Below, piece after piece: positions 13,547-27,841 of a stretch of 32,000 nucleotides of DNA (position 1 is the first letter of the stretch; every line of letters begins with the position of its first letter). Source of the DNA: Candidatus Woesearchaeota archaeon (GTDB taxonomy: Archaea > Nanobdellota > Nanobdellia > Woesearchaeales > ARS49). A model generated the notes under the pieces. That model saw only the letters and a list, made by a program, of their open reading frames with translations, was not told where the DNA came from and did no database searches. The stretch spans positions 29,317 to 61,316 of the forward strand of contig NYZT01000021.1 in assembly GCA_002687275.1 (NCBI GenBank). Direction: 5' to 3'. A program made the position numbers and the translations under genes.

Positions 13547-13564
13547 TCTAATCCTCCTTAGCAT

Positions 13565-13590
13565 AACTAGGGGCCCTAGGCCCCATAGTT
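13565..13590 (-). other. GC-rich intercistronic hairpin
   Basis: GGGGCC-CTA-GGCCCC (13570-13584), extended by AACTA/TAGTT with one bulge. It lies between the 13598..13792 and 13130..13546 ORFs. Confidence 0.4.
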
Positions 13591-13597
13591 GTTTAGT

Positions 13598-13792: not shown

Positions 13793-13896
13793 TGTCTTCA
13801 CCTCATGTGTAGAAGGAGTTTGGGAGCCATATACTATCTGTTCATATAATATATATTTCAGTAAAGCTTTTATACCTCGAAGACTGCCGTGCCGTC

Positions 13897-14751
13897 ATGA
13901 AGCGGAAACTCGTCCAACTAGGGCCAACCAGCCTAGCCATGACGCTGCCAAAAAAGTGGATAGACAAGTTCCACCTCACCCAAGGAAAAGAGGTAGACGT
14001 GGAGGAAAAGGACAAGATACTCGTGGTGAGCACCGAAGCCACAGGACCCAAAGAAACAACCAATTTCGACTTTTCAGGCCTCACCCCCACCATCATGCGC
14101 TTGATGTTGAGCGCGGCATACAAACAAGGACTCCCCGACATCACACTCACCAACGTCAACAAACAACAAAAAAAGGACATCGAGAAGGCTATCAATATCC
14201 TTGTCGGGTATGAACGCCTAGACCAAGGACCGAAAAGCGTGCGACTGGTGGACGTGAGCAGACCCGCAGAAGAGCTCATCGACAAGGCACAGCAACAAAT
14301 GCTGTGGAAGATCCTGAACATGATTGACGAGATCATCGCAGGCATCCACCCAGAAGATCTGCAGGCTCTCGACCTAGAGATCAACAGAGTGAGCTGGTTC
14401 TTACAACGAACCATAGCCGTGTATTACGCAAGAAGCCAAGAACTCTTCCTGATGTTTGAGGAAGCAGGCATCCTAGAGGCACTAGGAGACGGGCTGAAGG
14501 ACTACAACAAGGAAACACGCACAAAACCAAAAGCACACAAAGTATTACTTGGCGAGATCAAACAAGCGATTGAGGATTTGCAAAGCTTCCGCTCGAAGCC
14601 AAACATGGAGCGCATGCTCTCCACGAGAGATAGCATAAAAAAGATAAAGAAAAAAATGAAGGCCCACCCTCTTGCACAGGTCGTGCAGAAGGTGGACGAC
14701 CTCTACGAGGCCGTGGTTGCCCTAAAGATCAACGACCTAAGTACTTCCTGA
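13897..14751 (+). CDS. AbrB/SpoVT-domain plus PhoU-like domain regulator (archaeal phosphate-uptake-regulator-like)
   Basis: The N-terminus MKRKLVQLGPTSLAMTLPKKWIDKFHLTQGKEVDVEEKDKILVV is a swapped-hairpin AbrB/SpoVT-type domain. The helical remainder resembles PhoU repeats. TTTTATAC lies 29 nt upstream of the ATG. Confidence 0.75.
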   Translation: MKRKLVQLGPTSLAMTLPKKWIDKFHLTQGKEVDVEEKDKILVVSTEATGPKETTNFDFSGLTPTIMRLMLSAAYKQGLPDITLTNVNKQQKKDIEKAINILVGYERLDQGPKSVRLVDVSRPAEELIDKAQQQMLWKILNMIDEIIAGIHPEDLQALDLEINRVSWFLQRTIAVYYARSQELFLMFEEAGILEALGDGLKDYNKETRTKPKAHKVLLGEIKQAIEDLQSFRSKPNMERMLSTRDSIKKIKKKMKAHPLAQVVQKVDDLYEAVVALKINDLSTS

Positions 14752-15685
14752 TCTTCTGCTTCTGACGAACTTCCAGATCAAAACCGTACTTGCCTCTTCC
14801 TACCTCTTTGTAAGCCATTGCGTTGGGGACGCCATATCTTACGGTATCCTCAAGACCTACGTCAAAGGTGTGACCCAAGCCCATGTAGTGGCACAGCTCG
14901 TGCACGACGGTTCTTGTCTTACGCTTGACCACCATGTCAAGATCGGCAGCTAGCTCTTGCTCGTTCTTAACACGAATACCAGGCTTGAACACAGGGACCT
15001 TGTAGTCAAGGTCGCCATCTATTTTAGTGGCTGCCAAGACCTTTCTCAGGTCTCCAAACGCGTCATAGTTTGGATCCCTAACCGTGATGCCTGTGCGCCC
15101 CATCTTGGCCAACATACCATCCACGAGGTAGACGTTCTCTCCGGTTTGGATACCGGCAAGCGTCCATGCCGCAGCGTGCATGTCATGCCTGATGCCCAAC
15201 TTTTGCTTGTAAAGTTGCGCGTGGATGTTGGTCAGACGTTGGAACTGGTTGAGCAATCTTTGTCCATGACGGACGTACCGCTCATCGCCAATCATCCTTC
15301 GAACGTTCTTTCTCGCCTCGTCAACCTTTGCCATCTTGGCCTCGATCCTCTTCTTCGCTGGCGCGTAGACTCGTTCGTTTACCTCTTTAGGTTTGAGTTC
15401 TACCACCCTTACACGATCGTTTTCTGGGAGATCTTGCTCTCTTTCGTAAAAGTCAAAATCTACTTCGATGCCTACCTCTTCTTTGAAGTACTGTTTAGCA
15501 AGATTGAAGATTCTTTCTTGGTTTTCCTTGAAAATCCCCTCTTTGAGCACGACGTCGCACTCTAATCGGTATTCTAATGCTTGCTCAGCGCGTGCTGTCG
15601 CAGGTGCCACTATGGGTGGCGTGACTACTGCAGCCGCTCCTACGAGCAATGCCTTCAGTATGTTTCTTCGGGTTATATTCATCAT
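14729..15685 (-). CDS. Tat-exported zinc metalloprotease (metzincin-type HExxHxxGxxH)
   Basis: Twin-arginine signal (MMNITRRNILKALLVGAAAVV...ARAEQ) and VVHELCHYMGLGHTFD. AGGTGA lies upstream of the ATG pair. The 3' end overlaps the convergent PhoU-like gene by 23 nt. Confidence 0.8.
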   Translation of the reverse strand: MMNITRRNILKALLVGAAAVVTPPIVAPATARAEQALEYRLECDVVLKEGIFKENQERIFNLAKQYFKEEVGIEVDFDFYEREQDLPENDRVRVVELKPKEVNERVYAPAKKRIEAKMAKVDEARKNVRRMIGDERYVRHGQRLLNQFQRLTNIHAQLYKQKLGIRHDMHAAAWTLAGIQTGENVYLVDGMLAKMGRTGITVRDPNYDAFGDLRKVLAATKIDGDLDYKVPVFKPGIRVKNEQELAADLDMVVKRKTRTVVHELCHYMGLGHTFDVGLEDTVRYGVPNAMAYKEVGRGKYGFDLEVRQKQKIRKYLGR

Positions 15686-15747
15686 AATCACCTAAGAGTA
15701 GTAGCACGGTCAGACGTTTCAATTTAAGTATAAATTATATATACTTA

Positions 15748-16170
15748 CTACGGTTTTAGCCTATAGCGCACCTCCTCAGGCCCTTCGCCCTCTTCGTTGA
15801 CCCATGCCACAGTTATGACGCCGTCCTCCACCGCCAAGGCCACTCGGTTGTAGCCCCACAGGTCCTTTCTGTCCTCGCTCTGGTCGCGTTGGTGCCGAGT
15901 GATTATGTGTGGGCTGCTGCAGGCAGCGAACTCCGGATCTCCCCGCACCCTATGATACACGGTTACCCAGTCTGTCCATTCTACGCCATAGCGTCTGAAC
16001 TGGTGGTAGCGTTGGTGCCATCGCGCAGCAACAATCTCATGCGTCTCTGTCTGCACAAACCCCACGTCTTGGACGCCTGCTCTTTGACTCTCCACCTTGT
16101 CTCCCCACTCTTGGGGTCGTAAGTAATCTTCAATTCCCTCTACCTCTTGGCAGAGTTGTTGCGTGTCCAT
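15748..16170 (-). CDS. Hypothetical protein (140 aa)
   Basis: ORF with GGAGA 6 nt upstream of the ATG. No family recognised. Confidence 0.6.
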   Translation of the reverse strand: MDTQQLCQEVEGIEDYLRPQEWGDKVESQRAGVQDVGFVQTETHEIVAARWHQRYHQFRRYGVEWTDWVTVYHRVRGDPEFAACSSPHIITRHQRDQSEDRKDLWGYNRVALAVEDGVITVAWVNEEGEGPEEVRYRLKP

Positions 16171-16348
16171 TTTCGTCTCCTAGAGTTACCTCTAGAAGAG
16201 TATAGGGGGAGTCTGCACCCATAACGATTGGTATGAATAATATATACACAAAGTACGAACAAAACGTTTAAATACTCACCACTCGTCCTATCACCATGCG
16301 AGTTGATTGTCTTCATTGAGGCTCAAAAACTTCTTCTAACTAGTCCAT

Positions 16349-16420
16349 GGTGGCTGTGGCGTAATGGTAGCGTAGAGGCTTGTGGAGCCTCTGGCCCGGG
16401 TTCGATTCCCGGCAGCCGCC
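16349..16420 (+). tRNA. tRNA-His (anticodon GTG) with genomically encoded G-1; no encoded CCA
   Basis: Folded by hand. Acceptor GTGGCTG/CAGCCGC. D arm GCGT-AATGGTA-GCGT (two G-U pairs). Anticodon arm GAGGC-TTGTGGA-GCCTC. 4-nt variable loop. T arm CCGGG-TTCGATT-CCCGG. Discriminator C16420 can pair with the extra 5' G16349, which is a His-specific feature. Confidence 0.9.
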
Positions 16421-16433
16421 TTCGAGGTGCAAA

Positions 16434-17678
16434 ATGCCAAAAGGAATGAAGGATTACTATCCAGAGGAAAAGGCAGTACGCGAAAAAATGTACGCGACCT
16501 TCAAAGCCAGAGCAAAAGCGTACGGCTTCCAAGAGGTAGAAATGCCGGTCATGGAAACCGTAGAAAACCTCACCGCAAAATCTGGCCCAGACAAGAAAGA
16601 GCAAATCTTTTTGCTAGAAAAAAGAAGCAACGAACAGCTAGGACTGCGGTTTGACCTCACCATACCCATGACCAGACTCTTCGTGGCCAAACAAAAAGAG
16701 CTACCCAAACCCGTCAAATGGTTCTGCGTGGACAAGAACTGGCGTTACGAAGCACCCCAAAAAGGAAGACTACGAGAGTTCTACCAGTTCGGCGTAGAAG
16801 TCTTTGGCTCTGAGAGCCCAAGAGTGGACGCAGAGGTCATCAACCTCGTCATAGACTGCATGCAAGCCTTTGGACTAACCGAAAAAGAAGTCATCATGAA
16901 GGTCAACAGCAGAAAACTCCTAGAAGGATTGCTCGCCTCTTACGTCTCACCCAAACAAATGGTAGACGTCATCCGCGCCATCGACAGAGCGGCAGGCGAA
17001 GACCAGGAAACCCTCAAAAAAGAGCTCAAAGGCATAGGCATTGAGAACGACGAGGTCGTCAAGCTCGCCCAGATCAAAGGAAGCATGCAAGAGGTAGCAT
17101 CACAGATAGCAAACTGCGACATAACCGAAGAAGGAAAGGAAGAGCTAGAAAAATTGAAGCAAGCCTGCGCCTTACTACCCAAAGCATGGGTCGAGGTAGA
17201 CCTCGGACTAGCAAGAGGACTGGACTACTACACCGGCATCGTGTTCGAGGCCTTTGACAGAGCAGGCGAGCTACGAGCGCTAGCAGGCGGCGGAAGATAC
17301 GACGCCCTGACCTCGTTGCTCGGCGGCGAAGACACACCCGCAACAGGCTTCGGCTTCGGCATACTCCCCTTCAGCATCTACTTAGAAGAAAAAGGGTTGG
17401 TGCCAAAAACAGGCTTTGTCATCGAATACTTTGTCGCACCCGTAGACGAGGCAGTCGTGCCAGAAGCCTTCCGCATCACAGAAAAACTACGAAAAAAGTT
17501 CAACGTCGAGGTAGACCTAGCCGGCAGAAAACTCAGCAAACAATTTGAGTACGCAGCATCCATCGGAGCAAAAAAAGTCATCGTGGTAGGCTCACGAGAC
17601 CTAGAAAAGGGCCTCGTCACCGTCCGAGACCTTGCCAAGGGCAAGGAAGAGCAGGTCAAGGTTGAAGACCTAGGTTAG
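16434..17678 (+). CDS. hisS: Histidine--tRNA ligase
   Basis: MPKGMKDYYPEE start, motif 2 region WRYEAPQKGRLREFYQFGVEVFG and motif 3 region LAGGGRYD. GAGGTG lies 5 nt upstream of the ATG at 16434. The track's 16380 start would overlap the tRNA. Confidence 0.95.
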   Translation: MPKGMKDYYPEEKAVREKMYATFKARAKAYGFQEVEMPVMETVENLTAKSGPDKKEQIFLLEKRSNEQLGLRFDLTIPMTRLFVAKQKELPKPVKWFCVDKNWRYEAPQKGRLREFYQFGVEVFGSESPRVDAEVINLVIDCMQAFGLTEKEVIMKVNSRKLLEGLLASYVSPKQMVDVIRAIDRAAGEDQETLKKELKGIGIENDEVVKLAQIKGSMQEVASQIANCDITEEGKEELEKLKQACALLPKAWVEVDLGLARGLDYYTGIVFEAFDRAGELRALAGGGRYDALTSLLGGEDTPATGFGFGILPFSIYLEEKGLVPKTGFVIEYFVAPVDEAVVPEAFRITEKLRKKFNVEVDLAGRKLSKQFEYAASIGAKKVIVVGSRDLEKGLVTVRDLAKGKEEQVKVEDLG

Positions 17679-17709
17679 GTTATTAAACCCTGCACCATTA
17701 CCTAATACT

Positions 17710-18261
17710 ATGTTGCGAGGATTATACACAACAGTGTTCACCTTGGCAGTGGCTTCATTATTCGGCTGCAAGGGAGCAAGTGTTGTAGAAAAACCCGTGT
17801 CGCAACCTAAACCAGCAACCCCTTCAACCTTGGCGCAAAGCGTGTTGGACTTTAAGGGCGAAAAGAAAGTAGAGCCCTTTCGTAACGGCACAGAGCACAC
17901 CATCCCTGAATCAGAATTTTCTAGGTTTACCTTTACCGCCGTGCACACCCCGGGAGGCCCTGTAACCTACAGAGACCAGAATCCTGCGGGTTGGAGTCCT
18001 GGAGACCGTTTGCAGTATTCAGTCCAGCATGCTCCAGGTCCTGGAGATGGTTCTTGGTTTAGAAAGTACCAAGACGAGTGTCAGCCTGACGGAAGCACAC
18101 GCACGAAGACTAGCGATAGAAACTACGGCATGTGGTGGAACCTCAGTCGCCTTTTGGAAACCCGCCCATCAGATTTCCAGCACATCGCACGCCACCACCA
18201 AGATGCGCGAACATTCAACCAAAGAGCTATTGAGTCCCAACCTTCTCCAGAACCGCAATAA
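17710..18261 (+). CDS. Putative secreted lipoprotein, function unknown
   Basis: The signal peptide ends in a lipobox-like ASLFGC. TTATTAAA lies 30 nt upstream of the ATG. Confidence 0.6.
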   Translation: MLRGLYTTVFTLAVASLFGCKGASVVEKPVSQPKPATPSTLAQSVLDFKGEKKVEPFRNGTEHTIPESEFSRFTFTAVHTPGGPVTYRDQNPAGWSPGDRLQYSVQHAPGPGDGSWFRKYQDECQPDGSTRTKTSDRNYGMWWNLSRLLETRPSDFQHIARHHQDARTFNQRAIESQPSPEPQ

Positions 18262-18289
18262 GACGTTTTCTGCATTACTAAATTGTGCT

Positions 18290-18328
18290 CGGAAATCTTC
18301 CGGAATTTCTTAGCAAACTCATATAAAA
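18290..18328 (+). promoter_or_regulatory. Shared promoter module copy 1: CGGAAATCTTCCGGAA-N14-CATATAAAA
   Basis: 16-mer at 18290-18305, TATA at 18320-18328, exact 14-nt gap. Upstream of the TumE-like gene. Confidence 0.55.
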
Positions 18329-18411
18329 CGATCAGCTGACTTGTTTCTAAGCGAAACATTTAAATTATGGTACTGCATACCCTATGGTATGCAATACCCG
18401 AGAAAACCATC

Positions 18412-18678
18412 ATGGAAATTCCACGGTATGAAAAACAGTGGATTGGGGAGGGCCTCTTTGTGGAGATGACGCTCTATCCTACTGCCTCAGGACCCAAGTT
18501 TAGCTTGGTGCTCATCGACCACGGAAAAAGAGTTGTGGGAATTGACAATCATGAGAACAAACCACCACACAAACATGTGGGCGCAAGAGAACTGCCATAC
18601 CCTTTCATCACACTCGATAAGTTGTTTACAGACTTTTGGCAGCTCGTTGTGGAATACTTGGAGAAAAAAAATGGCTAA
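18412..18678 (+). CDS. TumE/DUF6516-like putative toxin component
   Basis: LFVEMTLYP...FSLVLIDHGKRVVGIDNHENKPPHKHVGARELPYPFITLDKLFTDFWQLV fits my recollection of the family pattern (GYDNxxG..HxH...E.Y.F.....L..DF). An alternative in-frame ATG lies at 18367. I prefer 18412 because 18374-18393 is a perfect palindrome, which looks more like an operator or UTR. Confidence 0.65.
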   Translation: MEIPRYEKQWIGEGLFVEMTLYPTASGPKFSLVLIDHGKRVVGIDNHENKPPHKHVGARELPYPFITLDKLFTDFWQLVVEYLEKKNG

Positions 18679-19063
18679 AACACTCATCATACAAGTCCGC
18701 AGCATTTGGGAATCCTTTAAGGAATTCCGTCATGAGTACGAAAATGCAAAAAAGGGCAAAATGAAGGGCGGCTATTATCTGACTTTCGCCAACATGGCCT
18801 TGTTCCGTAAGACGATTACGCCGAAGAGGCTAGAGCTAGTGCATGTCATCGCTTCCAAAAAGCCTTCTTCTGTTAGGCAACTAGCCGCACTAGTAAGCCG
18901 TGATTACAAAAGCGTCAGCCAGGACCTCGCCATCCTCGAGGACAACGGCCTGGTAACGTTTTCTTCTCACAAAGGCCGAAAAATTCCTCAAGCAGCATAC
19001 GACAACCTCCACATAAAGATTCCGTTAGTGGCCACCCAGCGAGTAAACAATCCACCCCCCTAA
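18671..19063 (+). CDS. Winged-helix DNA-binding protein, TumA-like putative antitoxin/regulator
   Basis: MAKTLIIQVRSIWESFKEF...ITPKRLELVHVIASKKPSSVRQLAALVSRDYKSVSQDLAILEDNGLV is a MarR/ArsR-like wHTH. Its ATG overlaps the upstream stop (ATGGCTAA, 8-nt overlap). Confidence 0.7.
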   Translation: MAKTLIIQVRSIWESFKEFRHEYENAKKGKMKGGYYLTFANMALFRKTITPKRLELVHVIASKKPSSVRQLAALVSRDYKSVSQDLAILEDNGLVTFSSHKGRKIPQAAYDNLHIKIPLVATQRVNNPPP

Positions 19064-19096
19064 AAAGCAGGTGTTGTTAGTCTTGGGATCTCACAG

Positions 19097-19119
19097 GTAA
19101 ATAATCAGATGATTGTTTA
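19097..19119. repeat. 23-bp palindromic repeat, copy A (GTAAATAATCAGATGATTGTTTA)
   Basis: 20 of 23 positions match copy B. Arms are TAAATAATCA / TGATTGTTTA (9 of 10 complementary). Overlaps the stop codon of the 19117..19785 gene. Confidence 0.6.
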
Positions 19120-19785
19120 GTCGCTATGACATTTTTCGATTCCAATCACATATATCATGTTGTCGTCCAATGTGTTCAATTCGAAGAGTCCATTCTTGTC
19201 GTGTAAACGCATACCGTCCGAACTCTCCCCCAGAGGCCGAAGGTCTCTGGAGCGTAACGTTTCTTCACTAACCGATTCAATTCTCTTTCCGTCTGCATCA
19301 TGGAGGGTCACACCCACTTCAGGAACCTTAAGAAAAACAGGTACCTTATCTGCATCATTGTTTGGCGCATGGGCTTCTGTTCTTACGCGCATCATGGTCA
19401 CATAGTCAGCGGATGATCCTGAGATTAGATAATTGTGTAGGCTCAGATGAGCTTGCATATTTGGTATTGTGCAACTTGCATAACTTGCCACAGAGGGACC
19501 AGAAGCCCTTGCGTCCGCGATCTCGGAAGGGTCTAGGTCTGCGTATCCATCCTTCACGAAACTGAGAGGAAACGTAAAACGGAAATCCGCGATTATACTT
19601 TCGACTTTTTCGGCCGCCCATGAACGTCCATTGGCGATCCGGATCTGATCCACTTCGAAATCCAAATCAAATTCTTCCCTGCTGTCTTGACGTAAAGAAC
19701 TCATCAGCCTCTCGTAGAAGTTCCCATACATCTCTGTGTTGCTAATGCGCGACAGCCCCATATTCTGTGACTGGATTGATCTCAT
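19117..19785 (-). CDS. Hypothetical protein (222 aa), second gene of a two-gene cassette
   Basis: ORF with AGGGAG 8 nt upstream of the ATG, 21 nt downstream of the 109-aa ORF. No family recognised. Confidence 0.65.
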   Translation of the reverse strand: MRSIQSQNMGLSRISNTEMYGNFYERLMSSLRQDSREEFDLDFEVDQIRIANGRSWAAEKVESIIADFRFTFPLSFVKDGYADLDPSEIADARASGPSVASYASCTIPNMQAHLSLHNYLISGSSADYVTMMRVRTEAHAPNNDADKVPVFLKVPEVGVTLHDADGKRIESVSEETLRSRDLRPLGESSDGMRLHDKNGLFELNTLDDNMIYVIGIEKCHSD

Positions 19786-19806
19786 GATTCGTTTTCTCCC
19801 TTGTAA

Positions 19807-20136
19807 CTATCTTAGGTTTTGTCTTTGTTGTTCCAGATTGTCGGCTTCCTGATCTTCTTGCGTGAAGTCTTGTTCAAGCGTATTCTCGAGTATTTCTTCA
19901 TCATCTTTCGGCTTGGTTTCAGCGTCGAATTTGGTTAGCAAAGTATCCATTTGTTGATGATCTGTAAGTGGAACAGCTCTTGCGTACTGCGTTGCTTCAT
20001 TTTCATAAGTGACCTTGTAGATATCGCGTGGTCCACGTACTAAGTATTTGACTCCATCTTCAACGAATACCCATGCGGCGTCGGTGCTTCCTCGGACATT
20101 TCCGGTTTCACCATCGTAATTGTCAATATGTGTCAT
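19807..20136 (-). CDS. Hypothetical protein (109 aa) with an acidic C-terminal tail, first gene of a two-gene cassette
   Basis: ORF with GGGGGAG upstream of the ATG and TTTATATAG about 60 nt upstream. The C-terminus KPKDDEEILENTLEQDFTQEDQEADNLEQQ is highly acidic. Confidence 0.65.
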   Translation of the reverse strand: MTHIDNYDGETGNVRGSTDAAWVFVEDGVKYLVRGPRDIYKVTYENEATQYARAVPLTDHQQMDTLLTKFDAETKPKDDEEILENTLEQDFTQEDQEADNLEQQRQNLR

Positions 20137-20261
20137 GTTTTCTCCCCCGTAGCGATGTGCTACTTTATGCGTAGAATGGTATAGTATTGAACTATATAAA
20201 CCTGCCGGTTAATTGTGACTTGAAAGGGACGACACAATAGATTACGTGCCCGAGGGCAAGA

Positions 20262-20284
20262 GTAAACAATCAAGTGATTGTTTA
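20262..20284. repeat. 23-bp palindromic repeat, copy B (GTAAACAATCAAGTGATTGTTTA)
   Basis: Perfect 10+2+10 palindrome TAAACAATCA-AG-TGATTGTTTA. It lies 3 nt upstream of promoter-module copy 2 and upstream of the divergent cassette operon. Confidence 0.6.
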
Positions 20285-20287
20285 TCC

Positions 20288-20326
20288 CGGAAATCTTCCG
20301 GAACGGAATGCATAACGCATATAAAG
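20288..20326 (+). promoter_or_regulatory. Shared promoter module copy 2: CGGAAATCTTCCGGAA-N14-CATATAAAG
   Basis: The 16-mer at 20288-20303 is identical to copy 1. TATA at 20318-20326, 14-nt gap. The ATG at 20348 lies 30 nt from the TATA edge, which is leaderless-type spacing. Confidence 0.55.
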
Positions 20327-20347
20327 GGATGATGCTCAAAGAGCTCT

Positions 20348-20614
20348 ATGAGACATCGCGAAAGTGCGTGGCACTACCTGTTCTACTTTTCCTTAGGTGT
20401 TCTAACCGTGTGGACTATTTTGAAGGTGGTAGGCGTCATCAACTCACCAGCGTGGCTGGAGGTGGGCCTTCCTGCAGCACTCATACTTTCCGCTCTTTCT
20501 CTATATCAAAACCTGCTGGACAAATTTCATGTCGTGCTGGTCGAGCTTGGCAAGGTCCAGATAAGAGTAGACCATGTAGAAGAAGACGTTAAAGAAATAA
20601 AAATTACTTCTTAA
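20348..20614 (+). CDS. Small membrane protein (88 aa, two predicted TM helices)
   Basis: WHYLFYFSLGVLTVWTILKVVGV and WLEVGLPAALILSALSLY are hydrophobic spans. The TATA spacing supports this start over the overlapping 20278..20592 frame. Confidence 0.6.
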   Translation: MRHRESAWHYLFYFSLGVLTVWTILKVVGVINSPAWLEVGLPAALILSALSLYQNLLDKFHVVLVELGKVQIRVDHVEEDVKEIKITS

Positions 20615-20639
20615 ATTCTTCATAAAGAAAAGAAAAATA

Positions 20640-20653
20640 GAGGCTTAAGCCTC
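20640..20653. terminator. Perfect 14-bp palindrome between convergent genes
   Basis: GAGGCTTAAGCCTC. On the minus strand it is followed by CTATTTTTCTTTTCTTT, a T-rich run consistent with termination of ftsZ. Confidence 0.45.
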
Positions 20654-20668
20654 GAATTGGTTGTGTCA

Positions 20669-21736
20669 TCACAACATGTCTATGCCTAACTCGTCACTAA
20701 ACACTTTAGTGCGAGGCGTTGCCTGACTAGGGTTAGCCTTGCCCAAGATCCACGGACTCTTGACCCCTGTCACGATGGTCATCACCATGAGCTTGGTCTT
20801 CATCTCTTCCATGATTCTGGCTCCCCAGATCACGTTAGAGTCCTCGTCCATCTGTTGGGTAACTAACTCTCCAACCGTGTTAATCTCATCAAGGGTTAGG
20901 TCGGGACCTCCAACAACCTGGATTAGTGCACCGGTAGCTCCAGTGTACTCGATGTCCAAGAGCGGATTGCTTAGCGCGCCTTTGACGGCTTCCTCCACTC
21001 GGTTGTTTGTGTCACTCACACCCACACCGATGGCAGCTACGCCGCCGTTAGTCATGATGGCCTTGACATCTGCGTAGTCAAGATTCACCAGGCTAGGTAT
21101 GGCTATGGTTTCAACAATACCCTTGATCATGGTGGCAACTAATTCGTTTGCTACGGCAAAGGCTTGTTGTACTGGCAGGTTGCCAGCGATCTTTACCAAG
21201 CGGTTGTTGTCAACCACGATGACTGTGTCTGCAACGTTTCTTAGCTGTTGTAGACCAAATTCGGCTTTGTCAATGCGTGCTCGTTCGATGTTGAACGGCA
21301 TGGTCACAGTGCCAATGACTATGGCACCGTTTTCCTTCACCACTTGCGCTATCACAGGTGCAGCGCCAGTTCCGGTTCCACCTCCCATTCCCGCACATAC
21401 AAATACCATATCACTCCCACGTAACACCTCTCGTAGCTGCATTAAGCTCTCTTGCGCAGCTTCTGTTCCCTTGTTGGGAAAACCGCCGCACCCAAGACCG
21501 CGGGTGATCTCTCTGCCGAGTAGAATTTTCTTATCAGCTTCAGTGATGTCCAGATGTTGCTTGTCTGTGTTGCAGGCGATAACTTCTGCACCACGAATAC
21601 CTTTCTTATACAACCAACTTACCATGTTGTTGCCGCCGCCTCCGACGCCAACGACCTTTATGTTTGCATGACCGAACTCGGTCGCCTCTTGAGCTTGTTG
21701 CTCTTGCTCCAACGCGTTTTCAACTATTAAATCCAT
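20669..21736 (-). CDS. ftsZ: Cell division GTPase FtsZ
   Basis: IKVVGVGGGGNNMV, the tubulin signature GMGGGTGTGAAPV, and NxDxAD (NLDYADV). I chose the start at 21736 (MDLIVENALEQ) because GAGGAGGA lies 8 nt upstream. The track start at 21853 adds a non-FtsZ-like extension. Confidence 0.95.
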   Translation of the reverse strand: MDLIVENALEQEQQAQEATEFGHANIKVVGVGGGGNNMVSWLYKKGIRGAEVIACNTDKQHLDITEADKKILLGREITRGLGCGGFPNKGTEAAQESLMQLREVLRGSDMVFVCAGMGGGTGTGAAPVIAQVVKENGAIVIGTVTMPFNIERARIDKAEFGLQQLRNVADTVIVVDNNRLVKIAGNLPVQQAFAVANELVATMIKGIVETIAIPSLVNLDYADVKAIMTNGGVAAIGVGVSDTNNRVEEAVKGALSNPLLDIEYTGATGALIQVVGGPDLTLDEINTVGELVTQQMDEDSNVIWGARIMEEMKTKLMVMTIVTGVKSPWILGKANPSQATPRTKVFSDELGIDML

Positions 21737-21828
21737 GCTCTGATTCCTCCTCTTTTGTGAGCGTAAAAGGGCTCTCCAGTTTTGGATGGGGGTTTGGTAG
21801 AAACAACGTGGAGAGCCTGTGAGCATCA

Positions 21829-21848
21829 ATTGCGTCTTGCGACGCAAT
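21829..21848 (-). other. Stable hairpin with a GNRA loop in the ftsZ upstream region
   Basis: The minus strand reads ATTGCGTC-GCAA-GACGCAAT (8-bp stem, GCAA tetraloop), about 95 nt upstream of the ftsZ ATG. A second hairpin GTGTG-N7-CACAC lies at 21874-21890. Confidence 0.35.
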
Positions 21849-21949
21849 GTCACCAGTATAGTAGTGTGGTAATATCACACTTCCGTATACTGATACATGG
21901 GATGACCCCACTCATATTTAAACGTTTCGATTTTTAAAGGGAACACTAG

Positions 21950-22012
21950 CCATCATGGAAAAGTGGTGGTAACCTGGTCTCAACCACCAGGAGTGGTGGT
22001 TCGTTTTGATGG
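21950..22012 (+). promoter_or_regulatory. Attenuator-like leader: 5-codon uORF (MEKWW) plus mutually exclusive hairpins and a T-tract
   Basis: ATG GAA AAG TGG TGG TAA at 21955-21972. AGTGGTGGT occurs at 21962-21970 and again at 21992-22000, and both copies are complementary to ACCACCA at 21983-21989. The second hairpin is followed by TCGTTTT. TATA-like elements lie at 21914-21922 and 21931-21939. Confidence 0.25.
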
Positions 22013-22060
22013 AGACAGGCACAAAACATTATATACAGCGAGCATATTCTCTCATCTAGT

Positions 22061-22456
22061 ATGGTTATCCTGTTCGATCGCTTTAACCTGCCACCGGATG
22101 TTTTCGAGCTAATCTTTGCCACAGAGCAGCAGATCATCGTGGCCAAGGAACTCATCAAGTATATAATAGCAAACAAGGGCGAGATCACCAAAACCGAGAT
22201 GAGTGTTTTTGCCACAAAGCTCCACGAGGGCAAGTACGAGAGCGTGCTAGATCGCGGCCAGTACAAAGGAAAAGAAGTCAAGCTGTCATACAACAAACGC
22301 CAATTCTATGACAGGATATTAACACCCATGAAAGCCATGGGCCTTGTAGAATATGATCTCTACAAAAAGACGTACAAGATTAGCGTTCATTTCCAAGCAG
22401 ACATGATGAAGATAGGCATCATGTGGAAAGAAGCGTTACGAAGACTAGGAGTATGA
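22061..22456 (+). CDS. Hypothetical protein (131 aa), possible winged-helix fold
   Basis: ORF with TTATATAC 32 nt upstream. The C-terminal half (SYNKRQFYDRILTPMKAMGLVEYDLYKKTYKIS) resembles a recognition helix plus wing. This is a weak call. Confidence 0.55.
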   Translation: MVILFDRFNLPPDVFELIFATEQQIIVAKELIKYIIANKGEITKTEMSVFATKLHEGKYESVLDRGQYKGKEVKLSYNKRQFYDRILTPMKAMGLVEYDLYKKTYKISVHFQADMMKIGIMWKEALRRLGV

Positions 22457-22550
22457 CTACTCTTCGTCTTCCGGTTCCCAATCTTCTTCACCGGGCATGA
22501 TCATCACCCCGACGATAGAATAAGAGCGTAGTATTTATGTTTTATGGATC

Positions 22551-22589
22551 CAGAAGATTTCCGGAACAACTACCGAAACACATATAAAA
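22551..22589 (+). promoter_or_regulatory. Shared promoter module copy 3: CAGAAGATTTCCGGAA-N14-CATATAAAA
   Basis: 16-mer at 22551-22566. It matches 12 of 16 positions directly, and 15 of 17 as the reverse complement TCCGGAAATCTTCTGGA. TATA at 22581-22589, exact 14-nt gap. Upstream of vapB. Confidence 0.5.
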
Positions 22590-22626
22590 GAAATCCACCT
22601 ATTAATGTTAAACAAGGAGTTATACA

Positions 22627-22818
22627 ATGGTTGTGGTAACAACAAAAAAGATTGGTGGAAGCCTCATGGTAGTCATACCAAGAGACGTGGTCAAAGAAAA
22701 AGACATAGGCCCAGATGAGACCGTGGATGTGGAAGTGAAGAAAGTGAGAAAGAGCTATCTAGGCGTGTTGAAGGGCATGGGAAGACTCACCAAGGAGGAT
22801 AAGTACGACATTGACTAA
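22627..22818 (+). CDS. vapB: AbrB/SpoVT-type antitoxin (VapB-like)
   Basis: MVVVTTKKIGGSLMVVIPRDVVKEKDIGPDETVDVEV is a swapped-hairpin AbrB-type N-terminus. AAGGAG lies 7 nt upstream. It overlaps the PIN gene by 8 nt. Confidence 0.8.
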   Translation: MVVVTTKKIGGSLMVVIPRDVVKEKDIGPDETVDVEVKKVRKSYLGVLKGMGRLTKEDKYDID

Positions 22819-23206
22819 GCTTGTTGTAGATGCTTGGTGCTGGGTCGAGTATCTCATTGGAGGGCCGCTAGCACCTATAATTGAAACAATGCTAGACAAG
22901 CACGAGTGCTACACCAGCGCTGTAAGCCTGGCAGAGACAGCGAGCAGGGCCCGGCGAATGGGAAAGGATGAGGCCCTCGCTGTTGAAGCCATCATGCAAA
23001 GATCACGCTTGGTGACGGTAGACGCCAACCTGGCACTAGAAGCGGGAATACTTCACTCTACAGAAAAGAAGCGCAACAGGCACTTTGGCCTAGGTGATGC
23101 TTTCGTACTCAGCACCTCCAAAAGCATAAAGGGAAGAATACTCACCAACGACAAGGATTTTGCACACCTTACTAACGTTTGGATGCTCGATAGACTGAAA
23201 AAATAA
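22811..23206 (+). CDS. vapC: PIN-domain ribonuclease toxin (VapC-like)
   Basis: LVVDAWCWVEYL (first Asp), SLAETASR (Glu), GDAFVLSTS (Asp) and ILTNDKDF (Asp) give the PIN acidic quartet. TTG start with no in-frame ATG nearby. Confidence 0.85.
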   Translation: MTKLVVDAWCWVEYLIGGPLAPIIETMLDKHECYTSAVSLAETASRARRMGKDEALAVEAIMQRSRLVTVDANLALEAGILHSTEKKRNRHFGLGDAFVLSTSKSIKGRILTNDKDFAHLTNVWMLDRLKK

Positions 23207-23219
23207 GAAGGGAAGGCTT

Positions 23220-23378
23220 TTACGCCTTGCCCAAGATTTTATACATAGTGCAGTCGCACTTTGTGCATACGCCCTTTGCTGCTTTCATCTTGACTTTGCC
23301 CTTCATAATTACTTCTTTCACGTCTTTCATCTTGCGATTGGTCTTGCATCGCATGCATCTTCCTTCTATATCGGCCAT
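23220..23378 (-). CDS. 52-aa zinc-ribbon protein, DUF5679-like (not in the ORF track)
   Basis: MADIEGRCMRCKTNRKMKDVKEVIMKGKVKMKAAKGVCTKCDCTMYKILGKA: CxxC...CxxC with the K-rich pattern I associate with DUF5679. GAGGTGG lies 7 nt upstream. Confidence 0.65.
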   Translation of the reverse strand: MADIEGRCMRCKTNRKMKDVKEVIMKGKVKMKAAKGVCTKCDCTMYKILGKA

Positions 23379-23450
23379 GTTATAACCACCTCAAGTCTTA
23401 ACCTAGACTAAGACTATTTAAAATTAACGCTTATTTAGTCGTTAGTAAGT

Positions 23451-23897
23451 CTAATCAGGACAAAGAGAACTTGTTAGGAAAGGCGAACGATCACGGTATT
23501 CTGGCAAGGGGATTCGCATGCCTTCGGACATCTCCAGACCTACAGGAAGTTTAACTATCTCCCACGCCACACCAGAACATGGCGCAAGCTCTACTTCATC
23601 GCGCGGAGGAGCACCTAAGGCTAAAGCTACTTTCTCTACGCCCCCTCGCATTTTTTCCCATGAGGCTGCGTCGGAAGCACCACCAACAATTTGCAGATAT
23701 TTTCCAGAAGGACGCGATTGCACGGTGGCCGTTATTCCTTCGGGCATCTCAGGAACATCATCTTTATCCCACTGAATCCTTCTCCCAAAATTACCTCCAC
23801 TTTCGCCTACGAAACCGTACACGTCGCTCATACAGTCACCAGGGAAGAGATGGTGGCTAGGCCCAAAAGCAATGGTGCGACTTAAGTCTGGACTCAT
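23451..23897 (-). CDS. Hypothetical protein (148 aa, or 126 aa from the internal Met)
   Basis: ORF co-oriented with, and 31 nt downstream of, the DUF655 gene. No family recognised. Confidence 0.55.
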   Translation of the reverse strand: MSPDLSRTIAFGPSHHLFPGDCMSDVYGFVGESGGNFGRRIQWDKDDVPEMPEGITATVQSRPSGKYLQIVGGASDAASWEKMRGGVEKVALALGAPPRDEVELAPCSGVAWEIVKLPVGLEMSEGMRIPLPEYRDRSPFLTSSLCPD

Positions 23898-23928
23898 ACC
23901 TAGGAAGAGTTATGGATAGTATTTAAAC

Positions 23929-24498
23929 CTACTCAGGACTATTAACGAACACGTTGTGCTTCTCATCGCCCCAGAGCTCGCTGAGCACGCGCTTTACCAC
24001 TATCTTCTCAGGGTCTGGCATCAGGTGTACTCTCTGGCGTAGGTCAGCAAAGTTTGCGAACTCCTTGTCGTCTCGTTCCTGGATTATCGCCCACATGTGC
24101 TTTTTTCCAAGGCCAGGTAATAGCTCTAGCTGGTGCATCCTCGTGGTTAGCGGTTGTGCGGTGTTGAAAAAGCTAACAAACCGTTCCTGGCCTTTCTGCA
24201 CCATGTCTTGGACTACAAACTCTACCTCTTTTCTTCCGCTGGCCGTGAGCTTGTCAGCGTCTAGCTTGCCCACTATGTGCTGGACCTTGTCTCTTTTTCC
24301 CTCTCCAAGATAGATTTCTTCTAAGGGTTGCAAGAACGAGTCTTTCTTCGCAGTCAGCTCAAGAAGGGTGAAATGCTTTTTTCCTATCGCTTGGATTATG
24401 GCCTGCTTTCTGTGACTAGGAGTGGGATCGTTTGGGTAGCCGTTCGGCAAGAAGTCTAGTACTATAGCCGTTTCTTCCCTTGCTGGTTTCTCTTCCAT
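23929..24498 (-). CDS. DUF655 (COG1491) family archaeal protein
   Basis: AIVLDFLPNGYP...AIIQAIGKKHFTLLEL and MHQLELLPGLGKKHMWAIIQERDDKEFANFADLRQRV match the conserved DUF655 pattern (an OB-like N-terminus plus a helix-hairpin-helix-like C-terminus). Confidence 0.85.
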   Translation of the reverse strand: MEEKPAREETAIVLDFLPNGYPNDPTPSHRKQAIIQAIGKKHFTLLELTAKKDSFLQPLEEIYLGEGKRDKVQHIVGKLDADKLTASGRKEVEFVVQDMVQKGQERFVSFFNTAQPLTTRMHQLELLPGLGKKHMWAIIQERDDKEFANFADLRQRVHLMPDPEKIVVKRVLSELWGDEKHNVFVNSPE

Positions 24499-24606
24499 AC
24501 CCCATACTCCTATTCATGTTGTTATTCATAAGTGTTAATACCTGCTTGTATATAAACGTGTCGATAGATCACCCTTATAAGCCTGTGGTTACTTACCAAT
24601 CACGTA

Positions 24607-25140
24607 ATGAGAACTATTCCCGAGATAGAGAGCCCTATCCAAATCCAGGCCACGGTGGACGCCAGCCACAATATGAAAAAAGATGATTTGGTGGTCATCC
24701 CTGAACTGGGCGACGTGCGAGTTCCTGAGGGCACGGCAGTTTTTGTCCCTGATAAACTCGTTCTTAATACCAAACCCGTGCTGTTGTGCGTGTACGTGCA
24801 CCCGAGATTGGCAAAGGCACCCAGTGATTCAGATCAGGTTTGCGTTCCTATCCGCTCCTTACCCTCTTTAGACCACGAAAGTATGGCCGAACAGACGCTT
24901 GCCATGCATGCGAAAGGTTATCATGGCTGCATGTTCACCGTGCCCGATTTTGAGTATCCTGAGTATCGACAAGTGCGCGACATCAAGGGTGCTGCAGAGG
25001 TGGTGCCCACGAGTTACGTGCATGCCACCTTAGAATCTTTGTGTAAAACCCGACCGTCGTTGAGACAGCCGCTTCTCCAACTACAGCTATATGACGGTGA
25101 GGTTCCCATGATCGATGACATCGCTGCAGCGGGACACTGA
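24607..25140 (+). CDS. Hypothetical protein (177 aa)
   Basis: ORF with CTTATAAG 32 nt upstream. No family recognised. The 3' end overlaps the convergent 25087..26190 gene by 54 nt. Confidence 0.55.
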   Translation: MRTIPEIESPIQIQATVDASHNMKKDDLVVIPELGDVRVPEGTAVFVPDKLVLNTKPVLLCVYVHPRLAKAPSDSDQVCVPIRSLPSLDHESMAEQTLAMHAKGYHGCMFTVPDFEYPEYRQVRDIKGAAEVVPTSYVHATLESLCKTRPSLRQPLLQLQLYDGEVPMIDDIAAAGH

Positions 25141-27837: not shown

Positions 27838-27841
27838 TAGG

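What the first reader, a model, noticed from the sequence alone, without database searches (positions are those of the whole stretch)
19097..20284. Two-gene cassette of unknown function bracketed by 23-bp palindromic repeats inside a TA-rich neighbourhood
Seen directly: GTAAATAATCAGATGATTGTTTA (19097-19119) and GTAAACAATCAAGTGATTGTTTA (20262-20284) match at 20 of 23 positions. Copy B is a perfect 10+2+10 palindrome. The two repeats flank exactly one operon on the minus strand: 19807..20136 (109 aa, acidic tail) and 19117..19785 (222 aa). The genes are 21 nt apart, each has an SD, and neither matches any family I recognise.

The cassette sits between a TumE/TumA-like pair and the second shared promoter module.

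Inference: the repeats could be remnants of an insertion (att-like or MITE-like ends), or a paired operator/terminator. A small acidic protein followed by a larger protein, in a defence or TA context, makes this a candidate novel two-component toxin-antitoxin or anti-mobile-element module.
Basis: partly seen in the sequence, partly recalled or inferred. Interest (0 to 1): 0.72.

Follow-up and report, generated by a model that had tools for sequence, protein, structure and literature searches.

The report
Recombinase-site-bracketed orphan gene cassette
Two unknown genes in a marine DPANN archaeon are bracketed by 22-bp palindromes that look like crossover sites of a small serine recombinase family; this points to an undescribed way of swapping gene cassettes in these archaea, but nothing shows the genes are a toxin-antitoxin pair.

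Summary
Two near-identical palindromes (19098-19119 and 20263-20284) bracket one minus-strand operon of 109 and 222 aa, and chance expects none. The window is chromosomal DNA of a Woesearchaeote (DPANN). The cassette lies in a variable island between the conserved convergent genes FtsZ and HisRS.

Both proteins are orphans. No family, fold or defence model matches them. Only the 109-aa gene has a homolog (79% identity, dN/dS 0.31).

The palindrome is a member of a repeat family in marine Nanoarchaeota-like contigs. The common form is TAAACAATCA-NN-TGATTGTTTA, a 10-2-10 dyad.
- It sits at gene borders.
- The sequences on its two sides reassort between contigs.
- A related site lies 0-620 nt downstream of a Gin-like small serine recombinase gene in 8 of the 9 recombinase-carrying loci that the pattern scan retrieved, and in 9 of 10 lineages then retrieved by protein similarity.
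- One contig (L176) carries both of the window's border blocks, with the same central dinucleotides, around a different gene.

Best reading (0.6): these are serine-recombinase crossover sites that delimit an exchangeable cassette. No recombinase is encoded in the window. The toxin-antitoxin idea is unsupported. I found no description of such a system in the searchable literature.

The parts
19098..19119 (.). Palindrome A. Sequence TAAATAATCA-GA-TGATTGTTTA, a 10-2-10 dyad with one arm mismatch. Read on the minus strand the central dinucleotide is TC. Its last 3 nt are the stop codon of the 222-aa gene.
   Evidence: The same variant outer arm and the same central dinucleotide occur in L176.
20263..20284 (.). 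Palindrome B. Sequence TAAACAATCA-AG-TGATTGTTTA, a perfect 10-2-10 dyad. The central dinucleotide is CT on the minus strand. It lies in the divergent intergenic region, about 60 nt upstream of the geneA TATA box and 33 nt upstream of the p88 TATA box.
   Evidence: Identical 22-mers occur in L103, L115, L177 and L191.
19041..19121 (.). Border block A. It consists of the half-site GAGTAAACAATC (19041-19052), a C6 run with the TumA stop codon, a spacer of about 45 nt, and palindrome A.
   Evidence: 89% identical over 79 nt to L176 1145-1223, while the flanks are unrelated. The 3' flank of the recombinase gene in L218 has the same architecture.
20262..20330 (.). Border block B. It consists of palindrome B, the inverted repeat CCGGAAATCTTCCGG (20287-20301), and the TATA element CATATAAAGG (20318-20327) that drives p88.
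   Evidence: 90% identical over 40 nt to L176 599-638, and the TATA part is also shared. The 16-mer CGGAAATCTTCCGGAA recurs at 18290-18305.
19807..20136 (-). geneA. 109 aa, pI 4.3. The model shows an N-terminal five-stranded beta domain and then a long acidic helix. Function unknown.
   Evidence: Compared with its 79%-identical homolog P0002, dN/dS is 0.31. No family or fold match.
19117..19785 (-). geneB. 222 aa, pI 4.9, predicted mostly beta. It has no credible homolog apart from its own copies.
   Evidence: AlphaFold2 gave pLDDT 35. No family match.
20142..20200 (-). geneA promoter and leader. The TATA box TTTATATA lies at 20193-20200 and the Shine-Dalgarno sequence GGGGGAG at 20142-20148.
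   Evidence: Read from the sequence. The region is conserved in L001.
18367..19063 (+). TumE/TumA-like pair, the left neighbour. The TumA ORF runs into block A and ends inside it.
   Evidence: PF20126 and PF25212, both above the curated cutoffs.
20348..20614 (+). p88, an 88-aa hydrophobic protein (GRAVY 0.51; two membrane helices judged by eye). It is expressed from the block B promoter and its mRNA is probably leaderless.
   Evidence: A 41%-identical relative occurs in L009.

Best explanation
The two palindromes are crossover (att/hix-like) sites of a family of small, Gin-like serine recombinases that circulate on mobile elements of marine Nanoarchaeota (DPANN). The segment between them is an accessory gene cassette placed in, or exchanged into, a variable chromosomal island by site-specific recombination at these sites.

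Shown:
- The site is a 10-2-10 dyad.
- It belongs to a repeat family that sits at gene borders.
- The sequences on the two sides of family members reassort between contigs.
- The site is physically linked to the recombinase gene.
- The window's two border blocks recur in L176 around a different gene.

Inferred:
- A recombinase dimer binds the two 10-bp arms and cuts at the central dinucleotide.
- The window's two sites carry different, non-palindromic centres (CT and TC on the minus strand), so they cannot recombine with each other. The cassette would be stable in cis and could only be replaced by a double crossover with a donor carrying the same pair of sites, or by a trans-acting enzyme.
- No recombinase is encoded in the 32 kb, so the enzyme would have to come from elsewhere in the genome or from an invading element.

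The cargo is a real two-gene operon with its own promoter. Its function is unknown.
For: 1. Geometry. The site has perfect 10-bp inverted arms around 2 variable bases. Where the central bases could be tabulated, family members have non-palindromic centres (CC/GG, CT/AG, TC/GA). From my knowledge of the Hin/Gin systems, not tested here, this is the layout of hix/gix sites (12-2-12), where the central dinucleotide is the cleavage site and the only source of polarity.

2. From site to enzyme. I clustered the ORFs of 48 palindrome-bearing loci chosen by eye from the 120 loci that the palindrome pattern alone retrieved. The largest cross-locus family was a 171-195 aa protein with a Resolvase domain (PF00239, E 1e-41 to 1e-45). 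It occurs in 9 loci, and in 8 of them the palindrome lies 0-250 nt after its stop codon.

3. From enzyme to site. For 10 recombinase lineages retrieved by protein profile, 9 have a related dyad in the 3' flank. Examples are AAAACAATCA-TG-TGATTGTTTA at +62 nt, CAAATAATCA-GG-TGTTTATTTG at +57, TAAATTATCA-TG-TGATTGTTTG at +21, and two that overlap the stop codon. These proteins are only 45-70% identical to the first query sequence, and the downstream genes differ.

4. The closest solved protein is Gin invertase (4m6f, E 2e-36). The Tyr-x-Arg-x-Ser-Thr motif with the active-site serine, the DR-x-GR motif and the GRP motif are invariant in the 8-sequence alignment.

5. Junction behaviour. The same left flank is joined through the palindrome to different right flanks, and the reverse also occurs, in several flank clusters (0, 1, 2, 3, 4, 5, 10 and 20). 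In L103 and L153, tandem genes are each separated by one palindrome, and the upstream stop codon is often the palindrome's own TAA, as for geneB here.

6. L176 has block B (centre CT) and block A (centre TC) in the same order and orientation as the window. They enclose one unrelated 164-aa gene, and the outer flanks are unrelated too.

7. The cassette looks acquired. The six island genes are missing from 19 relatives that keep the FtsZ-HisRS frame, where the gap ranges from 137 bp to about 9 kb. GC3 is 0.37 and 0.48 against 0.55-0.62 for core genes.
Against: - No recombinase gene is present in the window or in the 80 related Woesearchaeota loci.
- The palindrome is absent from about 1.1 Mb of those relatives, so the link to this lineage rests on the window and on L176.
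- The two sites have different central dinucleotides, so they are not the simple attL/attR pair of one integration event.
- One recombinase lineage (L207) has no site, and its homology with L171 ends about 7 nt before the palindrome rather than at its centre.
- In low-GC relatives the palindrome lies at a fixed 5-6 nt from a TATA box. This fits an operator equally well.
- About 22-28 residues follow the GRP motif in most members (up to about 45 in the longest), and no HTH domain was detected, so how the site would be recognised is unknown.
- Many of the 120 metagenome hits are probably chance matches in AT-rich DNA.
- No recombination product, such as a circle junction or an inverted or empty variant of this locus, was observed.
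Confidence: 0.6

Rival explanations
1. The palindrome is a transcription-factor operator. A dimeric regulator, possibly the resolvase-like protein acting as a repressor, the NikA-like ribbon-helix-helix protein, or a host HTH protein such as TumA, binds it to control adjacent promoters. In this reading copy B regulates the divergent geneA and p88 promoters, and copy A with its half-site is a second, looping or relic operator.
For: - In low-GC relatives the palindrome lies at a fixed 5-6 nt upstream of a TTTAAATA TATA box.
- In four elements a NikA-like ribbon-helix-helix gene starts 2-4 nt after it.
- Copy B sits between two divergent promoters.
- From general knowledge, resolvases such as TnpR double as repressors at res.
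Against: - Copy A lies between two convergent gene ends with no promoter to control.
- Flank reassortment at the site and the swapped cargo between conserved blocks are not expected of a plain operator.
- The partner that recurs across lineages is the recombinase, which lies upstream of the site. The downstream genes vary.
- The window has no homolog of the NikA-like protein.
Confidence: 0.2
2. The palindrome is a REP-like intergenic element. Its copies lie after stop codons and act as RNA hairpins for termination or mRNA stability, or as neutral selfish repeats. The bracketing of this operon would be incidental.
For: - Copies often begin exactly at a stop codon and are followed by a T-rich run.
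- There are several copies per few kb in some contigs.
- Copy B would fold at -9 to -12 kcal/mol if it were transcribed.
Against: - Twenty bases are conserved in sequence, not only in pairing, across contigs of 25-50% GC.
- Copy A folds at only -2.7 kcal/mol (z -1.4) on the geneB mRNA strand, and copy B is upstream of both promoters.
- No Y1/RAYT transposase is associated with the site. The associated gene is a serine recombinase.
- No Rfam family matches.
- Only 2 copies occur in 32 kb here, and none in 1.1 Mb of relatives.
Confidence: 0.08
3. One reading: the two genes form a novel toxin-antitoxin or anti-mobile-element module, and the palindromes are its own operator and terminator.
For: - The two-gene operon has a small acidic first gene and lies in an island with TumE/TumA, with VapBC about 2.5 kb away.
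- geneA is conserved, while the start of the downstream gene is unrelated in L001. This resembles the partner swapping seen in some conflict systems.
Against: - No toxin, antitoxin or defence family hit in Pfam, NCBIfam, PADLOC or PHROGs, and no PDB hit.
- The geneA model has no DNA-binding fold and no Foldseek match.
- Both proteins are acidic.
- The palindromes belong to a family that flanks unrelated genes elsewhere, so they are not specific to this operon.
Confidence: 0.07

Closest known systems
Hin/Gin/Cin DNA-invertase systems with hix/gix crossover sites
   Same: The catalytic domain is most similar to Gin (PDB 4m6f, E 2e-36). The site is a short dyad with two variable central bases, and the recombinase gene lies next to a site. 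One relative (L205) has a 3.3-kb segment flanked by inverted repeats of about 58 bp whose outer 10 nt are the arm sequence.
   Different: - The arms are 10 bp, not 12 bp.
- Most of the proteins end about 22-28 residues after the GRP motif (up to about 45 in the longest), and no HTH domain was detected.
- Sites occur in tandem between genes and at reassorting junctions, not as one inverted pair.
- No enhancer or Fis logic was identified.
- The host is archaeal.
Integron gene cassettes (IntI with attC sites), including the integrons reported in Archaea (PMC9668308)
   Same: Single genes or small operons are delimited by recombination sites placed right after the stop codon. Tandem arrays occur, the cargo is orphan or accessory, and the same frame can hold different cargo.
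   Different: - The linked enzyme is a serine recombinase, not a tyrosine recombinase.
- The site is a simple 22-bp duplex dyad, not a 57-141 bp folded attC (attC size from my own knowledge).
- The cassettes carry their own TATA promoters.
- No attI/Pc platform was seen.
pdif (Xer) modules of Acinetobacter plasmids
   Same: Discrete modules, often toxin-antitoxin pairs or accessory genes, are bracketed by short dyad sites. The same modules or frames appear in different contexts. The enzyme is not encoded next to the module.
   Different: pdif sites are 11-6-11 and are used by the tyrosine recombinases XerC/XerD (from my own knowledge). Here the geometry is 10-2-10 and the link is to a serine recombinase.
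Tandem SCC elements mobilised by Ccr large serine recombinases
   Same: Serine recombinase chemistry. The integration site overlaps the 3' end and stop codon of a gene, and successive elements are each bounded by a repeat of the site.
   Different: - Ccr enzymes are large serine recombinases with distinct attB and attP sites.
- SCC elements are tens of kb, not 0.5-1.2 kb.
- SCC elements are bacterial.

Membership tests
Serine-recombinase crossover site (hix/gix/res-site-I type) | Dyad-symmetric site whose two arms flank a 2-bp centre | tested here: met
   The site is 10-2-10. Copy B is perfect and copy A has one arm mismatch. The two central bases vary across the family while the arms are conserved.
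Serine-recombinase crossover site (hix/gix/res-site-I type) | A non-palindromic central dinucleotide gives the site polarity, and partner sites share it | tested here: inconclusive
   Where the central bases could be tabulated, family centres are non-palindromic (CC/GG, CT/AG, TC/GA). The window's two sites differ (CT and TC on the minus strand), although each matches its counterpart in L176.
Serine-recombinase crossover site (hix/gix/res-site-I type) | A cognate serine recombinase with an intact catalytic motif is genetically linked to the site | tested here: inconclusive
   Met for the site family: 8 of 9 loci, then 9 of 10 lineages, PF00239 at E about 1e-44, and invariant active-site motifs (Tyr-x-Arg-x-Ser-Thr, DR-x-GR, GRP). 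Not met in the window itself, where tblastn found no recombinase.
Serine-recombinase crossover site (hix/gix/res-site-I type) | Strand exchange occurs at the site, seen as recombinant junctions or in vitro cleavage | tested here: inconclusive
   Flanks reassort at the palindrome and cargo is swapped between conserved blocks. The breakpoint cannot be placed within the identical arms, and one pair of contigs loses homology about 7 nt outside the palindrome. Biochemical cleavage is not testable with these tools.
Type II toxin-antitoxin module | A toxin domain of a known family, or toxicity that the partner neutralises | tested here: not met
   No hits in Pfam, NCBIfam, PADLOC, PHROGs or PDB for either protein. 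Toxicity is not testable here.
Type II toxin-antitoxin module | An antitoxin with a DNA-binding fold (HTH, ribbon-helix-helix or AbrB) that autoregulates at an operator overlapping its promoter | tested here: not met
   The geneA model (pLDDT 72) is a beta domain plus helices with no Foldseek match. Copy B lies about 60 nt upstream of the TATA box and does not overlap it.
Integron cassette (attC) | An IntI tyrosine recombinase and 57-141 bp attC sites with R''/L''-L'/R' structure (GTTRRRY core); cassettes lack promoters | tested here: not met
   The site is 22 bp, no GTTRRRY core was seen by eye, and the cassette has its own TATA box and Shine-Dalgarno sequence. No integrase was seen by eye among window ORFs of 110 aa or more outside about 9.2-24.4 kb, or in the precomputed Pfam calls for the genes of L002, which covers 9,117-28,378.
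MITE or IS element | Terminal inverted repeats with a target-site duplication; either non-coding and short (MITE) or encoding a transposase (IS) | tested here: not met
   No direct repeat flanks the palindromes (CACAGG on one side, TCCCGG on the other). The 1.1-kb interior holds two genes, at least one of them under purifying selection, and no transposase.
REP/BIME elements with RAYT | Many extragenic copies per genome and an associated Y1 (RAYT) transposase | tested here: inconclusive
   There are several copies per few kb in some contigs, but only 2 in this 32 kb and none in 1.1 Mb of relatives. The associated gene is a serine recombinase, not a Y1 transposase. The whole genome is not available.
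Xer/dif-type site (pdif module) | Two arms of about 11 bp around a 6-8 bp spacer, recognised by tyrosine recombinases | tested here: not met
   Only the 2 central bases vary. The flanking CA and TG are conserved as parts of the arms. No tyrosine recombinase is linked to the site.

The most novel reading that the evidence does not exclude
Marine DPANN archaea and their mobile elements may share an undescribed cassette-exchange system. In it, Gin-like small serine recombinases with no detectable HTH domain move promoter-bearing gene cassettes between 22-bp 10-2-10 sites. Pairs of sites with different central dinucleotides, as in the window and L176, would act as natural heterospecific docking frames, like recombinase-mediated cassette exchange in biotechnology. 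This would give streamlined, recombination-poor episymbionts an integron-like route to accessory genes.
Probability: 0.35. Interest if true: 0.85.

Novelty: new variant of a known kind. Interest (0 to 1): 0.72.

Why it matters
DPANN archaea have tiny genomes, and little is known about how they gain and lose genes. A dedicated system of site plus recombinase that delimits and reshuffles single-gene cassettes would explain how their variable islands are built. The cargo seen here includes orphan genes, pentapeptide-repeat proteins and small membrane proteins.

Such a system would be a serine-recombinase counterpart of integrons in Archaea. It would also offer a compact recombinase of about 170 aa with a 22-bp target, and possibly naturally orthogonal central dinucleotides, as a candidate genome-engineering tool.

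For annotation, the result shows that this palindrome marks module borders, so it can be used to delimit accessory cassettes in metagenomic contigs.

Tried and rejected
- Family searches on both proteins (Pfam, NCBIfam, PADLOC, PHROGs, PDB sequences) found nothing.
- The word-indexed search of 5.8 billion proteins and the exhaustive search of 1.84 billion representatives for geneB found only the protein itself. The other three hits are eukaryote-like or repeat proteins that match a short motif many times, so I judged them spurious.
- AlphaFold2 on geneB alone gave pLDDT 35, which is unusable.
- The geneA model (pLDDT 72) gave no Foldseek hit with E below 0.01 in the PDB or viral libraries.
- Rfam found nothing in 18000-21000.
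- Looking for an empty site with a single palindrome in syntenic relatives: the FtsZ-HisRS gap is variable (137 bp to about 9 kb), but none of the 16 gaps scanned, and none of the 80 related loci, contains the palindrome. No orthologous empty site exists in the data.
- The viral collection held only one exact copy, so the palindrome is not a virus-specific motif.
- The NikA-like ribbon-helix-helix protein as binder: it is present in only 4 of 9 recombinase loci and is absent from the window.
- Mapping a breakpoint at the palindrome centre with L171 against L207: homology ends about 7 nt before the palindrome, so the result is uninformative.
- Terminator reading: copy A forms a weak hairpin on the mRNA strand.
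- Literature searches found no description of this site or system.
Full report
OBSERVATION. GTAAATAATCAGATGATTGTTTA lies at 19097-19119 and GTAAACAATCAAGTGATTGTTTA at 20262-20284, and the two match at 20 of 23 positions. The 22-nt core of copy B (20263-20284) is a perfect 10+2+10 palindrome, and copy A has one arm mismatch. Allowing 3 mismatches, the window holds no other copy, and none appeared in 100 dinucleotide-preserving shuffles. Between the repeats lie two minus-strand ORFs: 19807-20136 (109 aa, "geneA") and 19117-19785 (222 aa, "geneB"). They are 21 nt apart, and each is preceded by a GGGAG-type Shine-Dalgarno sequence. The TAA stop codon of geneB is the last triplet of copy A. Two details were not in the finding. 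The 12-mer GAGTAAACAATC, identical to the left edge of copy B, occurs once more at 19041-19052, inside the last codons of the upstream TumA-like gene and 45 nt from copy A. Copy B is followed directly by the inverted repeat CCGGAAATCTTCCGG and a TATA element that drives the 88-aa hydrophobic protein p88. The same 16-mer and TATA arrangement precede TumE, and a variant precedes VapB.

CONTEXT. The window is chromosomal DNA of a Woesearchaeote (DPANN; Nanoarchaeota in GTDB). Its FtsZ is 89% identical to that of a Woesearchaeota MAG, and 80 further loci from the same group were retrieved. Identical copies of the locus come from Tara Oceans and JGI marine assemblies. In 19 relatives, FtsZ and HisRS form a conserved convergent frame whose gap ranges from 137 bp to about 9 kb. 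In the window the 3-kb gap holds p88, geneA, geneB, TumA, TumE and a 183-aa ORF. None of these is present in the relatives, apart from one distant p88 relative elsewhere in L009. TumE and the HVO_A0114-type TumA pass the Pfam curated cutoffs. GC3 is 0.37 for geneA and 0.48 for geneB, against 0.55-0.62 for RNR, PolB, HisRS and FtsZ. The cassette therefore sits in a variable, probably acquired, island.

THE CARGO. Neither protein matches any Pfam, NCBIfam, PADLOC or PHROGs model, or any PDB sequence. GeneB has no credible homolog other than itself among 5.8 billion clustered proteins or in an exhaustive HMMER pass over 1.84 billion representatives. The few other hits are repeat proteins that match one short motif many times. 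GeneA has one homolog, 79% identical, on a 563-bp contig. Its promoter, leader and Shine-Dalgarno sequence are conserved there, and dN/dS is 0.31, so geneA is a real gene under purifying selection. The first 40 residues of the gene downstream of that homolog are unrelated to geneB. AlphaFold2 failed on geneB (pLDDT 35). For geneA it gave a moderate model (pLDDT 72) with five strands, a helix and a long acidic helix, and this model has no significant Foldseek neighbour in the PDB or viral libraries. Both proteins are acidic, with pI 4.3 and 4.9. Nothing supports or excludes a toxin-antitoxin or defence role. The cargo function is unknown.

THE PALINDROME IS A FAMILY. I scanned metagenome contigs for TAAAYAATCNNNNGATTRTTTA. 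Many single hits in AT-rich DNA are probably chance matches. A coherent marine subset stands out, however. In it the inner CA..TG bases are conserved, so the site is 10-2-10, and several contigs carry 2-4 copies. In these contigs the palindrome lies between genes. The stop codon of the upstream gene is often the palindrome's own TAA, exactly as for geneB. The next gene's TTTAAATA TATA box follows 5-6 nt after the palindrome. The bracketed genes are diverse: pentapeptide-repeat proteins, small membrane or secreted proteins, and orphans. About 1.1 Mb from 80 other Woesearchaeota loci contain no copy, and the viral collection holds a single exact copy. No Rfam family matches the region.

JUNCTION BEHAVIOUR. 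I clustered the 30 nt outside each arm for 104 instances. Flank types reassort across the palindrome. For example, the promoter flank (cluster 0) is joined to at least six different partners. The end of the pentapeptide gene (cluster 1) is joined either to cluster 0 or to cluster 2. Clusters 3, 4, 5, 10 and 20 behave in the same way. Homology between contigs therefore stops at the palindrome.

THE KEY RELATIVE, L176. A 1,485-bp marine contig carries both of the window's border blocks in the same order and orientation. Block A runs from the half-site through the 45-nt spacer to palindrome A (window 19041-19121) and is 89% identical over 79 nt. Block B consists of palindrome B, CCGGAAGATNTCCGG and the TATA element (window 20262-20330) and is 90% identical over 40 nt, with the TATA part also shared. 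Between the blocks L176 has a single unrelated 164-aa gene, whose Gly-His-Ser-Lys-Gly motif I read by eye as a possible hydrolase nucleophile elbow. It lies on the opposite strand, and its stop codon is again the palindrome's TAA. The sequences outside the blocks are unrelated to the window. The central dinucleotides are conserved block by block: CT in B and TC in A, read on the window's minus strand. The frame is conserved and the cargo is swapped.

LINK TO A RECOMBINASE. I clustered all ORFs of 48 palindrome-bearing loci chosen by eye from the 120. The largest cross-locus family was a 171-195 aa protein with a Resolvase catalytic domain (PF00239, E 1e-41 to 1e-45). It occurs in 9 loci, and in 8 of them the palindrome lies 0-250 nt after its stop codon. 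These loci look like mobile elements. They also carry a PrimPol-D5 helicase, a tyrosine integrase and NikA-like ribbon-helix-helix genes, and another locus (L205) has TraC/VirB4 and a type IV secretion system pilin.

I then ran the reverse test. A profile of eight of these proteins retrieved thousands of relatives. The top 120 are all 170-250 aa (all but three under 200 aa) with Resolvase as the only recombinase-type Pfam domain, and two are named as Nanoarchaeota proteins. For ten lineages with retrievable DNA, nine have a related dyad in the 3' flank. Four lie 21-62 nt after the stop codon, two overlap the stop codon, one lies one gene away at +617 nt, one is degenerate, and one lineage has none. 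These proteins are only 45-70% identical to the first query sequence and the downstream genes differ. That argues for a functional tie rather than shared backbone synteny.

In L218 the 3' flank has the same layout as the window's block A: a half-site overlapping the stop codon, a C-rich run, a spacer of about 45 nt, and then the full palindrome. In the window the TumA gene occupies the position that the recombinase gene holds there. The closest solved structure is Gin invertase (E 2e-36). The active-site motifs (Tyr-x-Arg-x-Ser-Thr, DR-x-GR and GRP) are invariant. About 22-28 residues follow the GRP motif in most members (up to about 45 in the longest), and no HTH domain is detected. No member of this family is encoded in the window.

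MECHANISM. The explanation that fits all of this best is that the palindromes are crossover sites for this recombinase family. From established knowledge of Hin/Gin and resolvases, a dimer binds the two arms, cleavage is staggered by 2 nt at the centre, and the central dinucleotide sets polarity and compatibility. This has not been shown here. Under this model, genes bounded by such sites can be integrated, excised, inverted or exchanged. That would produce the tandem arrays of gene and site, the reassorted flanks, and the swapped cargo of L176. In the window the two centres differ, so the pair should not recombine with itself. The cassette would be stable unless it is exchanged by a double crossover with a donor carrying the same heterospecific pair. 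This parallel with recombinase-mediated cassette exchange is my inference. I put confidence in this explanation at 0.6.

Several points weigh against it. There is no recombinase in the window or in close relatives. The two centres are mismatched. One recombinase lineage has no site. One homology break lies about 7 nt outside the palindrome. No recombination product was observed.

RIVALS. An operator role (0.2) fits the fixed spacing to TATA boxes and the ribbon-helix-helix genes that start 2-4 nt after the site. It may well coexist with recombination, as at Tn3 res. It does not explain copy A, which lies between convergent gene ends, or the swapping of cargo and flanks. A REP-like or terminator hairpin (0.08) fits the position after stop codons. 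It does not fit the conservation of sequence rather than pairing, the weak fold of copy A on the mRNA strand (-2.7 kcal/mol), or the position of copy B upstream of both promoters. The toxin-antitoxin or defence reading (0.07 as an explanation of the palindromes) has no positive evidence.

NOVELTY. Four full-text searches found no description of this site, of recombinases of this kind in DPANN archaea, or of serine-recombinase cassettes in Archaea. The principle, short recombination sites that delimit exchangeable cassettes, is known from integrons, pdif modules and invertase systems. I therefore rate this a new variant of a known kind. The finding is of considerable interest, but it rests on comparative inference only.

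Noticed in passing
window 18283-18330, 20287-20327, 22550-22590; L176 78-130 and 598-612: A shared promoter module, the CCGGAA-N3-TTCCGG dyad followed 14-16 nt later by CATATAAA, precedes TumE/TumA and p88. A variant with the inner part inverted precedes VapBC. L176 has two copies. It may be the operator of one regulator controlling the island's accessory operons.
   Followed up: partly
window 17679-20668; loci L004-L071: The convergent FtsZ and HisRS genes form a conserved frame in Woesearchaeota. The gap between them ranges from 137 bp (L026) to about 9 kb and is filled with unrelated genes in each genome, so it is a hotspot for accessory genes.
   Followed up: yes
window 22627-23206: No VapBC homolog is found in the closest relative L004, which keeps p131 and p52 about 800 bp apart. 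VapBC may be a second accessory insertion in this neighbourhood.
   Followed up: partly
L163 605-1120, L171 604-1134, L116 6585-7112; proteins P0007-P0126: A very large family of Resolvase-domain proteins of about 170-195 aa. More than 6,000 hits have E below 1e-20, although that count probably includes ordinary resolvases. They end in a short basic tail (GRPxGSKDKKRRRKSGYxxRW) with no detected HTH domain. How they recognise DNA is unclear.
   Followed up: partly
L205 11834-11895 and 15130-15188: Inverted repeats of about 58 bp, whose outer 10 nt are the palindrome arm (TAAAAAATCA-GG... and ...CC-TGGTTGTTTA), flank a 3.3-kb segment holding a Band_7 gene and two others. The segment lies 1.3 kb from a recombinase on a conjugative-type element. 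It is a candidate invertible segment.
   Followed up: partly
L084 416-625, L106 2346-2520, L116 7156-7365, L167 1055-1220: In four elements a NikA-like ribbon-helix-helix gene (PF21983) starts 2-4 nt after the palindrome, always next to the TGATTATTTA arm. This suggests that the site overlaps the gene's promoter.
   Followed up: partly
window 19040-19053 and 19111-19124: GCGAGTAAACAATC and GATTGTTTAGTCGC form a 13-of-14 inverted repeat that reaches 5 nt beyond the half-site and beyond the arm of copy A. As a single strand, block A is predicted to form a long-range stem (-25.9 kcal/mol, z -3.2).
   Followed up: partly
L001 442-561 versus window 19666-19785: The geneA homolog keeps its promoter, coding sequence and the intergenic Shine-Dalgarno sequence, but the first 40 codons of the downstream gene are unrelated to geneB. 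The second gene of the operon is either replaced or evolves very fast.
   Followed up: partly
L099, L103, L111, L132, L146, L169, L181: Pentapeptide-repeat proteins are the most frequent cargo next to the palindrome in low-GC marine contigs.
   Followed up: no
L176 1247-1268: L176 has a further half-site, GTAAATAATCA-CT, joined to an unrelated right arm 24 nt beyond block A. It looks like a hybrid (attL/attR-like) site.
   Followed up: no
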